64,000 nucleotides of DNA from Oceanispirochaeta sp. (GTDB lineage Bacteria; Spirochaetota; Spirochaetia; DSM-2461), in contig CAXXOA010000001.1 in assembly GCA_963666275.2 (NCBI GenBank), positions 832,001 to 896,000 on the forward strand. The letters are read 5' to 3'. Shown in pieces: positions 42,001 to 45,000 of this stretch; position 1 is the first letter of the stretch; every line of letters starts with the position of its first letter. Made by a program: the position numbers.

Positions 42001-45000
42001 TCTCCGTATATCACAGTCAGTATCGGTATTTCCTGCGGTCCCCTGACTTACTCCAGAGAATTTGCTGAACAGCTTATTGTTACGGCGGACGAGGCCCTCT
42101 ACAGGTCCAAAAAAGAGGGACGCAACAGACAGACTCTCAGTAACAGCTGCCCTTCCGAATAAAAAAATCCTTTTGCAGAAGAGTTTTTTCTCAGAAAAAT
42201 AACAACAATTATGTAGAAAATAAAAATCTTTATTTTTATCCTCAGAAGAGAAAAATTTTCTCTATGATAACCGGCAGAAAATTTTTATGCATTTTAAAAT
42301 GATACTCTGAAATAAAATAGAAATATCTGGCAGTCGTTTTTTTGTGAAGTAATAAAGGAATAATCATATATTAAACAGGGGCCGGCTGTTTTTTTCTTAT
42401 TCTACCGGCCTGGAAAGATATTGTAATTTTTTTACTTCCTTGGTTAAAATCTAGCATGTCTGACATCTTGCGGGACTGTCAGAAGAAATTCCATGTGCAG
42501 ACATTGAGGACGGGAAGCCTGTTCGTACCAAGAGTACCGGGGTCGCACTATACACTACAAAGATTTACCGGTTACGGGGTCTGGTGGCTGTTGCATGGAA
42601 GTTCCTTTATCTCAACCCACGACAGCAAACCTCTCTCTTCCGGTGAGTATTCAGTTGAAAACTGGAGGATGTGCATGGTAGAGAACTATCTGGAATTAAC
42701 AAAAAGAATACATCAGGGAGAAGCCCAGTCCAAAGAGGATTGGGACTTCCGTATCATTGAGACGGTTCAGTCTCTGGTGGAAAAATACAGCCTGAGCTGG
42801 AACCGGGAGGAGCTGTGCTCCGAAGACGATGATCTGGCCGACCGGGTGTTTCAGGCAGGAAGAGAACTGCTCCTGACAACCGGAGTCTACGCTCTTTCCG
42901 AGGGCAGAGTTCTGCTCCTGGGAGAAGAGGAAGTGGACAGGGCCATGAAAGGGATGAATAAAACCCTGGTTATGGGAGAAGGCAAAGACAGCTACTCACT
43001 GGCTCCCCGGAAGGTCTGCGATACCAGGCCGCCTGCTGTCTGGGCGGGAAACCCCGGTGTCCCCACACCGGAAAGGCTATTCAAAGCGACTGTAAAAAGC
43101 TGGGCCCGGGAGAGCGTGGTGGATCTGATCACCTGCGGATCTCTTGTGGATGTGGACGGCTATAAGGTCGAATCCGGAGAGGTGAGCGAACTGCTGGCTT
43201 CACGGCGGGAACTGGAGCTGCTGAAACAGGTCCGGGAAGAGGTAGGCCGACCCGGAATGGGAATGCTTGCCGCAGAGAGCAGTGTCACCGAAATCGGTGA
43301 CCTGGCTGCAACCCACCCGGATCTGCTGCGTCCCTGTGATTCCCATCTGGTAGCCATGTTCAATGAGCTTATGATTGACCGGGGGAATATGGTCCGGGCG
43401 GCCAACTCCCTTTTCTACGGTATGGCCAATGCCTCTCTGGCGACTGTTATGGTCGGGGGTCTCGCAGGAGATGCTCACGGTGCCGCCATTGCGCAGGTTG
43501 CCTCTTTTCTGGCGGCGAACATTATCTGTCTGGCCGATTATCATCTGTGCCATCCCATTCATATACAGCATGTGGCCACTTCCACCAGAGGATGCCTCTG
43601 GCTGGAGAGCATTGTCTGTCAGGCCTTTGCCAGGAACGCACCGGCTATCATTGTCTGCGATATCTATCCCAAGAGCGGGGCAGTGACAAAAGAGCTCCTT
43701 TATGAGGTGGCAGCCAATGCCCTGGCGGCCTCAGTCAGCGGGGGCCACCTGGAAGGGGTCGGTTCCGCTGATGGAAGCCTGCCTCACGGAACCGGTCTGG
43801 AAGTCAGGCTGATGGGAGAAGTCGGACATGCCGCTGCGGGACTCAGCCGCAGCAGGGCCAATGGGATCATTCTGGAACTCCTGAAAAAATATGAACATGT
43901 TTTTGATCTGCCCGGAGGAAATCCCGGACTTCCTTTCGATCAGGCTTACGACATGGATACCCTGACACCCTCCCCTGAGTGGGAAGCAATGTACAATTCC
44001 GTCAGAAAAGAACTTGTTTCTCTGGGTCTGCCCCTGAAGTAAAAGTGGAAACCCCGTCCCGGTGGGGACTGGATATAAAACGTATAGGAGAAAAGAAATG
44101 GTTGTCTACACGATTTTCAATGTGGCGGTAGTTATCGTCCTCGGTCTGGTTGCCCGTTTCACCAGTAAAAATGTGGTGGAAAAAGAGAGTAAGGGATACA
44201 CAACCCAGAATCTGGTCATTGTGGCCGTACTGGCTGCGATCGCCGGTGTTATCAACACAGGGATGGGAAATATCTGGTATCTGGCCAACACCTCTCTGGG
44301 ACCTCTGGGGGGAGCCCTGATTCAGGGGATGTTCATGTGGGCCTATATTCTGGCGGCTTTTATGGTAAGAAAACCCGGCGTGGCTCTGGCTTTCGGTATT
44401 ATCGAGTCGGCTACCGAGGTTATTCTGGGAAATGCCGCGGGAATCGGAACTCTCGGATGGGGAATCTCCCAGGGACTGGCCATTGAAGCCATTCTTCTTA
44501 TCTGCTCCTATAGACGTTTCGGTCTGGTTGCGGCGCTGATGGCGGGTATCGCCTCCTCACAGTTCGGTACTCTCTGGAGTTCCGTCTTCTACGGATGGGA
44601 TCCCTCCTATTCAAAGGACGTCTGGATGGCCGTTCCCATCAACATGATCTCCGGTGCCGTTTTCAGCGGTGGTCTGGGATACTTCCTGGCAACGAAAATT
44701 GCCAGAACAGGCCTGGTCCGTTCGTCCAGAGCCTAAAAAATAGCATTTGAAATAGGCGGCAGGTTTTCCTGCCGCAAGGCAAAGGATGCAGAATATGTCT
44801 GATATAGTTCAGCTGAAAAATGTTTCATTTCGATTTCAGGATAAAGAAAATCCTGTTCTGAAGGATCTTACTTTCTCCCTGAAAAAAGGATCCTTCAATA
44901 TCCTTGTCGGTCCCGGCGGGAGCGGAAAATCCACTCTCTGCAAGGTTCTGGACGGCCGGATCCCCCATCTCATTCCCGGGACTCTGGAGGGGCAGGTCCT

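What a model noticed while it worked through the whole genome (the two positions that open the first line are those of the whole stretch)
42482..42607. Conserved structured RNA upstream of a non-Pyl MtmB/ECF-transporter operon (riboswitch candidate)
A ~125-nt element with an invariant 22-nt core (GACAYUGAGGACGGGAAGCCUG) and covarying helices sits 70-200 nt upstream of the pyrrolysine-free MtmB homologue g00728 and its ECF transporter. I read it as a new riboswitch-type 5' leader that senses the (unknown) methylated substrate or a product of this operon. It matches no Rfam family, so it would be a new cis-regulatory RNA class and a handle on the orphan function of bacterial non-Pyl MtmB proteins.
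Evidence so far: Alignment of upstream regions of MtmB homologues showed the block; covariance model R2 finds exactly 1 hit in this genome (E 1.6e-22, call 64) and 1 hit each in 12 of 38 genomes of the order DSM-2461 incl. this one, 0 of 150 other sampled Spirochaetota; in all 12 the hit lies upstream of and in the same direction as the MtmB homologue (tblastn, call 67). On 15 distinct sequences 90% of cells pair vs 30-44% when the partner is slid; 6 pairs change on both sides (15:75 UA<->CG in 6 sequences, 20:71 and 44:65 AU<->GC in 4 each). Rfam 15 at E<=10: only noise; no paper holds 'riboswitch candidate' and 'MtmB'.
(Added by a program. Inside this text positions count along the whole contig: contig position 832,001 is position 1 of the stretch shown here. 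"Call 12" and the like, gene names such as g00115 and contig names such as C1 are that model's own, and its searches are not shown. The text may have been shortened before it was handed on; [...] marks where a part breaks off. The agent that wrote the report below was given it as the finding of a first reader that could run no searches.)

Follow-up and report, generated by a model that had tools for sequence, protein, structure and literature searches.

The report
New riboswitch-like leader before mtmB homologue
A conserved, folded stretch of RNA sits just ahead of a methyltransferase-plus-importer operon in a group of marine spirochaetes; it matches no known RNA family and most likely acts as a small-molecule sensor, which could help reveal what this orphan enzyme family works on.

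Summary
The element is real. A covariance model (R1) gives 16 instances at 83-116 bits, while chance matches to the core score 22.7 bits or less. A 17th instance turned up later. There is one copy per genome in 6 of 6 genomes checked. Every copy lies upstream of, and in the same direction as, one orthologue group of pyrrolysine-free MtmB; the gap is 44-94 nt in the 15 leaders measured. In the order, the same 12 of 38 genomes hold both RNA and orthologue. The RNA also occurs in two further families of the class.

The fold has an outer helix P1, a covarying P2, a covarying hairpin P3 and a variable hairpin P4. No Rfam 15 family matches. The genome holds canonical TPP and cobalamin riboswitches elsewhere.

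Best reading: a new riboswitch class, confidence 0.5. Ligand binding, ligand identity and the expression platform are all unshown. The orthologue rides with three different importer types, which hints at an N-heterocyclic substrate.

The parts
42421..42450 (+). Promoter-like site: TTGTAA, 18-nt spacer, TAAAAT. It would start the transcript near 42457.
   Evidence: Consensus scan, 9 of 12 matches. This is a pattern match only, with no expression data.
42458..42483 (+). Inverted repeat GTCTGACA ... TGTCAGA between the promoter-like site and P1. Possibly an operator or a 5' hairpin. It is specific to one genus and is not part of the conserved RNA.
   Evidence: GTC[AT]GAC is present upstream of P1 in 8 of 8 genus-g1 loci and 0 of 9 other RNA-bearing loci. 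The full palindrome is not enriched genome-wide.
42486..42495 (+). P1 5' strand, AAAUUCCAUG. The outer AAUUCC is nearly invariant.
   Evidence: Duplex with the 3' strand of -8.1 to -16.4 kcal/mol in 17 of 17 sequences. Read from those duplexes, the inner pairs change A-U to G-C and U-A to G-C.
42495..42502 (+). P2 5' strand, GUGC[A]GAC, with one bulged base.
   Evidence: Pairs 11-13 and 16-18 with 84-86 and 88-90. Pair 12:89 is UA 8, CG 7, UG 1; pair 17:85 is AU 12, GC 4.
42503..42521 (+). Invariant core, A-Y-UGAGGACGGGAAGCCUG. It holds P2b (YUG, 42504-42506), the junction AGGA (42507-42510) and the Pa hairpin CGGG-AAG-CCUG (42511-42521).
   Evidence: Invariant columns. RNAalifold predicts P2b and Pa without my input. 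This fold has lower energy than the CCUG/CGGG pairing in 16 of 16 sequences.
42525..42537 (+). P3 hairpin, GUAC-loop-GUAC, of variable length and loop.
   Evidence: Pair 41:79 is AU 10, GC 5, GU 1. Three of 5 pairs show changes on both sides, and 96.3% of cells pair.
42538..42548 (+). 3' strands of P2b (CGG, 42538-42540), the inner P2 (GUC, 42542-42544) and the outer P2 (GCAC, 42545-42548).
   Evidence: Pair 20:82 is UG 8, CG 2, UA 2, unpaired 4.
42549..42593 (+). Variable region P4 of 34-50 nt, one imperfect hairpin, ending in CUGU(U)G in most genus-g1 and g3 sequences.
   Evidence: Folds as a single hairpin of -5.3 to -15.1 kcal/mol in 16 of 16, with no sequence conservation.
42594..42603 (+). 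P1 3' strand, CAUGGAAGUU. It is purine-rich and resembles a ribosome-binding site.
42604..42660 (+). C-rich, G-poor linker. It contains UCUUCCGGU (42636-42644), which can pair with the ribosome-binding site.
   Evidence: C 256 against G 110 summed over 15 leaders, with C/G of 1.6-4.0 in each of the 15. The 9-bp helix with 42661-42669 appears in the constrained fold.
42661..42677 (+). Ribosome-binding site GGAGGA (42664-42669) and start codon ATG (42675-42677).
   Evidence: Sequence and the start of the MtmB Pfam match.
42675..44042 (+). Pyrrolysine-free MtmB homologue, 455 aa.
   Evidence: PF05369 at E 7.6e-93. Leu aligns with the pyrrolysine position of 1L2Q.
44062..44736 (+). ECF transporter S component of the YkoE type.
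   Evidence: PF09819 at E 9e-26. Matches PDB 5EDL YkoE at E 6e-16.
44786..46525 (+). Fused double ECF ATPase, 579 aa.
   Evidence: TIGR04520 and TIGR04521 both above cut-off.
46527..47303 (+). ECF T component.
   Evidence: PF02361 CbiQ at E 4.6e-35.

Best explanation
The element is the aptamer of a previously undescribed riboswitch class in the 5' untranslated leader of an operon. That operon encodes a pyrrolysine-free MtmB-type methyltransferase and an importer.

The RNA folds into an outer helix P1 that closes a junction with a variable hairpin (P4) and a stem (P2). P2 leads into a compact three-way junction (P2b, Pa, P3) built from about 20 invariant nucleotides. I take that junction to be the ligand pocket.

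The ligand is inferred to be a small N-heterocyclic metabolite linked to the operon: either the imported (possibly N-methylated) substrate or its product. Ligand binding would fix P1 and P2. That would change what the C-rich, G-poor linker downstream can pair with, and so control access to the ribosome-binding site, or possibly Rho loading.

The fold models lean weakly towards ligand-bound = OFF.

Shown: conservation, structure, strand, gene association and absence from Rfam. Inferred: ligand binding, ligand identity, mechanism and polarity of control.
For: Discrimination: R1 gives 16 instances at 83.4-115.9 bits, while chance matches to the 19-nt core pattern in coding DNA score 22.7 bits or less. 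A 17th distinct sequence was found.

Copy number: one copy per genome in 6 of 6 genomes searched whole.

Co-occurrence: 12 of 38 genomes of the order hold the RNA, and the same 12 hold the >=70%-identity MtmB orthologue. In a 401-genome sample of the class, 18 genomes hold an orthologue at E<=1e-100 and 15 of these hold the RNA. None of 29 loci with 30%-identity paralogues has it.

Structure: the core structure pairs in 97.6% of cells against 32-42% when slid. Five pairs change on both sides, and 0 of 500 shuffles reach the covariation score. RNAalifold finds P2, P2b, Pa and P3 unaided. P1 forms in 17 of 17 and P4 in 16 of 16.

Strand: the invariant G-U pairs 21:81 and 28:36 (16 of 16 each) would be A-C mismatches on the other strand.

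Not coding: the open frame upstream of the gene varies from 5 to 100 codons among genomes.

Not a known class: no Rfam 15 family overlaps the element at E<=10 except one mir-128 noise match, in the window and in 13 related loci. The same genome has 2 canonical TPP and 2 canonical cobalamin riboswitches.

Linker: it is C-rich in 15 of 15 leaders. Forcing the aptamer lowers the unpaired probability of the ribosome-binding site in 6 of 15 leaders and raises it in 1.
Against: No ligand, binding data or expression data exist; no RNA run is listed.

The range is narrow: one class of spirochaetes, with 17 distinct sequences falling into about 7 close groups by my own reading of the alignment. Each covarying pair therefore rests on roughly 1-3 independent changes.

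The pocket is invariant, so its fold (Pa, P2b) has almost no covariation support, and 4 of 16 cells at pair 20:82 do not pair.

The counts were made on a model-fitted alignment, which favours the structure. The P1 register is off by one for some rows.

The expression platform is not resolved. There was no effect on the ribosome-binding site in 8 of 15 leaders, and no terminator was found in the window's leader. Complementarity between the P1 5' strand and the start region is strong only in 2 of 15 leaders.

Three orthologues (70%, 57% and 57% identity) have no such RNA, so the element is dispensable for the gene.

A separate upstream DNA motif in genus g1 shows that other regulation may exist.
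Confidence: 0.5

Rival explanations
1. A protein-binding leader. The invariant junction would be the docking site of an RNA-binding regulator or of a protein of the pathway, which represses or activates translation of the operon.
For: About 20 invariant nucleotides with no clear ligand-dependent switch. One copy per genome, tied to a single operon, as in autoregulatory leaders.
Against: No conserved candidate RNA-binding protein gene lies nearby: the neighbours differ among 6 loci annotated. The size and architecture (a long-range P1 closing a multi-helix junction with an invariant core) are typical of metabolite aptamers. That comparison is established knowledge and was not tested here.
Confidence: 0.2
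2. A structured leader that senses nothing. It would only stabilise the mRNA, set a fixed translation rate or act as a processing site.
For: The ribosome-binding site is sequestered by local hairpins in several leaders whatever the aptamer state, for example L024 at 0.01 in both states.
Against: Strict invariance of an unpaired or junction core across at least 3 families, while the stems drift, is more than a stabilising hairpin needs.
Confidence: 0.12
3. A very divergent member of a known riboswitch class (TPP, cobalamin, or purine/xanthine type). This is suggested by the YkoE-type transporter, the corrinoid enzyme and the nucleobase-type permease.
For: By recall, the Bacillus ykoFEDC operon is under a TPP riboswitch. 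The S component here is a YkoE homologue. By recall only, the core UGAGGA resembles the CUGAGA of TPP aptamers.
Against: No match to any of 4227 Rfam models at E<=10, in the window or in 13 relatives. The same genome uses canonical TPP and cobalamin riboswitches. The helix order differs from those classes by my reading.
Confidence: 0.06
4. An independent small RNA, or an element on the other strand, that merely lies next to the gene.
For: No transcript data are available.
Against: It always has the same orientation and lies 44-94 nt from the start codon in the 15 leaders measured. No terminator lies between the element and the gene in the window. Invariant G-U pairs fix the strand.
Confidence: 0.05

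Closest known systems
TPP riboswitch (Rfam RF00059) upstream of the ykoFEDC-type ECF transporter (operon link recalled, not from a call)
   Same: A 5' leader RNA in front of an ECF module with a YkoE-type S component, a fused double ATPase and a T component. A long-range P1 closes a multi-helix aptamer.
   Different: No RF00059 match at E<=10. The genome's two real TPP riboswitches lie in front of thiG and an ABC binding protein. The helix order and core sequence differ. The first gene here is an MtmB homologue.
Cobalamin riboswitch (RF00174)
   Same: It regulates corrinoid-related genes. In this genome one stands before a lone 211-aa corrinoid protein that could partner the MtmB homologue.
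   Different: No RF00174 match to the element. The element is about 120 nt, without the four-way junction or B12 box of that class; that description of the class is recalled.
Purine-family riboswitches (guanine, adenine, xanthine, 8-oxoguanine) upstream of nucleobase permeases (8-oxoguanine paper seen as a search listing only)
   Same: Three-way-junction aptamers in the leaders of nucleobase importers. In 2 RNA-bearing loci the operon's importer is a permease that sources name 'xanthine/uracil/vitamin C permease'.
   Different: No Rfam match. The junction sequence is unrelated. The gene association is with a corrinoid-type methyltransferase, not purine metabolism.
Orphan riboswitch candidates tied to one gene family, such as the yjdF motif (title and abstract seen in listings)
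   Same: Narrow gene association, unknown ligand, and a downstream protein whose unknown function hampers the guess.
   Different: A different sequence and fold, and a much narrower taxonomic range (one class of spirochaetes).

Membership tests
Riboswitch (generic definition) | A conserved structured domain in the 5' leader of the regulated mRNA, on the sense strand | tested here: met
   17 of 17 instances are co-directional with the gene; the gap is 44-94 nt in the 15 leaders measured. G-U pairs fix the strand. The transcript start is only predicted.
Riboswitch (generic definition) | Helices supported by compensatory changes | tested here: met
   P2 and P3: 5 pairs with changes on both sides, 97.6% paired against 32-42% slid. 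P1 inner pairs also covary. Independent events are few. Pa and P2b are essentially invariant.
Riboswitch (generic definition) | Direct and selective binding of a small-molecule ligand | not testable with these tools
   Needs in-line probing, ITC or a structure.
Riboswitch (generic definition) | An expression platform with mutually exclusive pairings that couple binding to gene expression | tested here: inconclusive
   Forcing the aptamer lowers access to the ribosome-binding site in 6 of 15 leaders, raises it in 1 and leaves 8 unchanged. The linker is C-rich in 15 of 15. No terminator in the window.
TPP riboswitch RF00059 | Covariance-model score at or above gathering (54.3 bits) | tested here: not met
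   No RF00059 match even at E<=10. The model does find 2 true TPP riboswitches in this genome.
Cobalamin riboswitch RF00174 | Covariance-model score at or above gathering (31.5 bits) | tested here: not met
   No match at E<=10. The model finds 2 true ones elsewhere in the genome.
Any Rfam 15 family (4227 models) | A match at E<=10 overlapping the element | tested here: not met
   In the window only a mir-128 noise match (17.2 bits against a gathering score of 49) overlaps it. Nothing overlaps the element in 13 related loci.
MtmB family (downstream gene) | PF05369 match, and pyrrolysine (UAG) at the catalytic position | tested here: not met
   PF05369 is met at E 7.6e-93, but the pyrrolysine position aligns with Leu and the frame has no in-frame stop. 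It is a non-Pyl homologue, not a monomethylamine methyltransferase proper.

The most novel reading that the evidence does not exclude
The RNA is a riboswitch for an N-methylated heteroaromatic compound, such as a methylated nucleobase or nucleoside released from RNA and DNA turnover, or for its demethylated product. It would be the first RNA sensor tied to the MtxB-type corrinoid methyltransferases.

Its ligand would name the substrate of a non-Pyl MtmB orthologue group that is 60-65% identical across Planctomycetota, Desulfobacterota, Clostridia and Anaerolineae.

That group travels with three unrelated importer types: a YkoE-type ECF module, a permease named xanthine/uracil-type by its sources, and a PnrA/Bmp-type ABC system.
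Probability: 0.15. Interest if true: 0.85.

Novelty: new variant of a known kind. Interest (0 to 1): 0.62.

Why it matters
Non-Pyl MtmB homologues are widespread, but only one has an assigned function: MtqB, acting on tetramethylammonium and choline (PMC13044021; abstract, Discussion and searched passages read).

A dedicated aptamer in front of one highly conserved orthologue group is a direct experimental handle. Screening the naked RNA against metabolite panels could name the pathway's substrate or product without growing these spirochaetes.

It would also add a riboswitch class with a compact junction of about 20 invariant nucleotides.

The gene-context result stands on its own: the same enzyme rides with three importer types whose known relatives carry N-heterocycles. 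That turns an orphan enzyme family into a testable hypothesis.

Tried and rejected
- Expression data: no RNA holder is listed for window 42300-43300.
- Orthologue loci in other phyla: I wanted to see whether a known riboswitch stands upstream there, but could not fetch them. Phylum-wide protein searches centred on two unrelated genomes found 0 of 120 and 0 of 401. Plasmids gave no match and viral contigs gave none.
- P1 5' strand as the anti-ribosome-binding-site sequence (an ON-switch model): rejected as a general rule. The duplex is stronger than nearly all of 34 control start regions in only 2 of 15 leaders: WIN at -13.3 (0 of 34 controls as strong) and L029 at -13.1 kcal/mol (control fraction 0.03).
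It costs about 7 kcal/mol more than the three-way junction (mean -11.6 against -18.4; worse in 16 of 16).
- The GGTCAGAC-NN-GTCTGACC palindrome as a genome-wide regulon: 45 matches against 71 for the reversed control.
- A LacI-family regulator beside the G1013 orthologue: the best relative in this genome is only 29% identical, so no orthologue can be named.
- The 509-aa permease: no Pfam or NCBIfam hit and no PDB sequence-profile hit. A mediocre model (pLDDT 66.4) matches the 7+7 inverted-repeat fold shared by SLC26/SulP, UapA, UraA and SVCT1. The fold therefore does not separate nucleobase carriers from anion carriers.
- Earlier notes of this scan: three look-ups returned nothing.
- Papers: no relevant paper with 'riboswitch' plus 'MtmB' (5 listed, none relevant by title or abstract). 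No paper holds the core string. Nothing relevant with 'riboswitch candidate' plus 'Spirochaet'. PMC11109978 holds none of the five terms I searched in it. PMC10418091 no longer holds the terms in its latest version.
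Full report
**What is there**

Window 42485-42605 (+) lies between a diguanylate cyclase gene that ends at 42162 and a 455-aa MtmB homologue that starts at 42675. Four genes follow:
- the MtmB homologue (PF05369, E 7.6e-93);
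- an ECF S component (PF09819; homologue of YkoE, PDB 5EDL, E 6e-16);
- a fused double ECF ATPase;
- an ECF T component.

In the alignment with Methanosarcina MtmB (1L2Q), Leu stands at the pyrrolysine position. The enzyme is therefore a non-Pyl homologue.

A 241-nt BLAST query found 14 of 38 genomes of the order at E<=0.01. Two of these hits (22-25 nt) are chance, which leaves 12.

An exact scan for AYTGAGGACGGGAAGCCTG gave these results:

| Collection | Loci found | Real | Chance hits |
|---|---|---|---|
| genome contigs | 12 | 7 (2 new) | 5 |
| metagenome contigs | 14 | 4 (2 new) | 10 |

I judged real against chance from the flanking sequence and from the model scores below.

A covariance model built from 16 distinct sequences (R1) separates the two sets cleanly: 83.4-115.9 bits for the 16, and 22.7 bits or less for every chance hit. 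The 16 match by construction, so the gap is the informative part. R1 finds exactly one copy in this genome and one in each of 5 other carriers searched whole.

**Gene association**

The same 12 of 38 genomes hold both the RNA and the >=70%-identity MtmB orthologue.

A 401-genome sample of the class holds 18 genomes with an orthologue at E<=1e-100. Of these, 15 have the RNA: the 12 above plus G1069, G991 and G1010, which belong to two other families. G1010 supplied the 17th distinct sequence. Three do not have it: G1058 (70% identity), G1013 and G1001 (57% each). None of 29 loci with 30%-identity paralogues has it.

The RNA spans at least three families, but it remains confined to one class in everything I searched.

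What follows the MtmB gene in the 17 distinct RNA loci:
- an ECF S component in 14;
- a 509-aa permease in 2 (G008, G009);
- unknown in 1, because the contig ends.

**Structure**

- P1 (AAAUUCC.. with ..GGAAUU) forms in 17 of 17 sequences at -8.1 to -16.4 kcal/mol. Its inner pairs switch A-U to G-C and U-A to G-C, as read from the duplexes.
- P2 has a bulged base. Pair 12:89 is UA 8, CG 7, UG 1. Pair 17:85 is AU 12, GC 4.
- P3 varies in length. Pair 41:79 is AU 10, GC 5, GU 1.
- Between P2 and P1 on the 3' side lies a 34-50-nt unconserved segment. It folds into one hairpin (P4) in 16 of 16.

For the invariant core I tested two folds. RNAalifold, run without my structure, instead extends P2 by YUG/CGN and closes CGGG-AAG-CCUG as a small hairpin, giving a three-way junction. 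That fold:
- pairs in 97.6% of cells, against 32-42% when slid;
- is essentially the unconstrained minimum of the core;
- is lower in energy than the alternative in 16 of 16 sequences, with means of -18.4 against -11.6 kcal/mol.

Because the core does not vary, this choice rests on energy and on one variable pair (20:82: UG 8, CG 2, UA 2, unpaired 4), not on covariation.

Caveats on the structure:
- The counts come from a model-fitted alignment, which favours the structure.
- The P1 register in that alignment is off by one for part of the rows, which is why I examined P1 separately.
- By my own reading of the alignment, the 17 sequences fall into about 7 close groups. Each covarying pair therefore reflects only about 1-3 independent changes.

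In most genus-g1 and g3 sequences the outer half of the P2 5' strand can pair with CUGU(U)GC next to P1 instead. This possible alternative conformer is compatible with the data but unproven.

**Strand and coding**

Invariant G-U pairs (21:81 and 28:36, 16 of 16 each) would be A-C mismatches on the other strand. The frame upstream of the gene is open for 5-100 codons depending on the genome. Indels sit in loops. Together these argue against a coding region.

**Known families**

No Rfam 15 model matches the element at E<=10, in the window or in 13 related loci. The same genome has two canonical TPP riboswitches, in front of thiG and an ABC binding protein. It also has two canonical cobalamin riboswitches, in front of a lone 211-aa corrinoid protein and of CbiK.

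No paper in the library links a riboswitch to MtmB or holds the core string.

**How it may work**

A promoter-like site (42421-42450) would place the transcript start about 30 nt before P1.

Downstream of P1 the linker is C-rich and G-poor in 15 of 15 leaders: C 256 against G 110. Most leaders have a local hairpin that covers the ribosome-binding site. In the window this is 42636-42644 pairing with 42661-42669.

Forcing the aptamer lowers the unpaired probability of the ribosome-binding site in 6 of 15 leaders. It raises it in 1 and leaves 8 unchanged. An ON model, in which the P1 5' strand masks the start region, fits only the window and L029. No terminator was found in the window's leader.

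I therefore commit only to control of translation initiation, or Rho loading, through the C-rich linker. I lean weakly towards ligand-bound = OFF.

**What the ligand might be**

The orthologue group is 60-65% identical in Planctomycetota, Desulfobacterota, Clostridia and Anaerolineae. It travels with three importer types:
- the YkoE-type ECF module;
- a 509-aa permease that sources name 'xanthine/uracil/vitamin C permease' or AGZA family (G008, G009, G1013);
- a PnrA/Bmp-type ABC system (G1001).

Five contig lengths recur in the hit lists of the enzyme and of the permease. That hints, indirectly, that the pair is common in other phyla.

The permease model (pLDDT 66.4) has the 7+7 inverted-repeat fold shared by UapA, UraA and SVCT1, but also by SLC26 anion carriers. 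The fold alone therefore does not settle the substrate.

Known relatives of these importers carry thiamine or its pyrimidine, purines and nucleosides (partly recalled). For that reason I favour an N-heterocyclic, possibly N-methylated, compound. This is inference. The only non-Pyl MtmB with a known function acts on tetramethylammonium and choline (PMC13044021; abstract, Discussion and searched passages read).

**Verdict**

This is a real, new, narrowly distributed structured leader. The riboswitch reading is the best supported but unproven (0.5). The main rival is a protein-binding leader (0.2).

Noticed in passing
window 42458-42465 and 42477-42483; L017, L019, L020, L022, L023, L024, L025 upstream of P1: A GTC[AT]GAC motif, often as the inverted repeat GGTCAGAC-CT-GTCTGACC, lies 25-47 nt upstream of P1 (103-115 nt in G008 and G009). 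It is present in all 8 genus-g1 loci and in none of the 9 other RNA-bearing loci. It may be an operator or promoter element acting alongside the RNA. The full palindrome is not enriched genome-wide (45 matches against 71 for the control).
   Followed up: partly
L017 6763-7920 (-), genome G002: The ECF module after the MtmB orthologue looks truncated. The double ATPase matches only residues 2-214 and the T component only residues 165-235, within one 385-aa frame. This looks like a deletion joining the two genes.
   Followed up: no
L024 6830-8359 (-), L025 6919-8448 (-), L104 2948-4366 (+): A 509-aa membrane protein with no Pfam or NCBIfam match replaces the ECF transporter after the MtmB orthologue. 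Its family is 56-83% identical across many phyla, and sources name it xanthine/uracil/vitamin C or AGZA permease. The predicted fold is the 7+7 inverted repeat of UraA, UapA and SLC26.
   Followed up: partly
L106 2109-6821 and L105 1501-2874, genome G1001: A 57%-identity MtmB orthologue is the last gene of a PnrA/Bmp-type ABC transporter operon (binding protein PF02608, double ATPase, two PF02653 permeases). It has no leader RNA of this kind.
   Followed up: partly
L104 289-1320 (-), genome G1013: A LacI-family regulator gene lies divergent from an MtmB orthologue plus permease pair that lacks the RNA. The shared promoter region contains GTCTGAC and GTCTGTC. The best relative in the window's genome is only 29% identical.
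   Followed up: partly
L087 786-1421 (-), own genome contig 2 near 2265588-2266424: A canonical cobalamin riboswitch stands directly before a lone 211-aa corrinoid protein (B12-binding_2 plus B12-binding). It is the only small stand-alone corrinoid protein found in the genome, which also has 12 URO-D/MtaA-family matches. It is a candidate partner of the MtmB homologue.
   Followed up: partly
window 42456-44042 (+): The MtmB frame stays open for 73 codons upstream of the likely start and runs through the RNA element. In relatives the open stretch upstream is much shorter (5-38 codons), so I read this as chance rather than a longer protein.
   Followed up: partly
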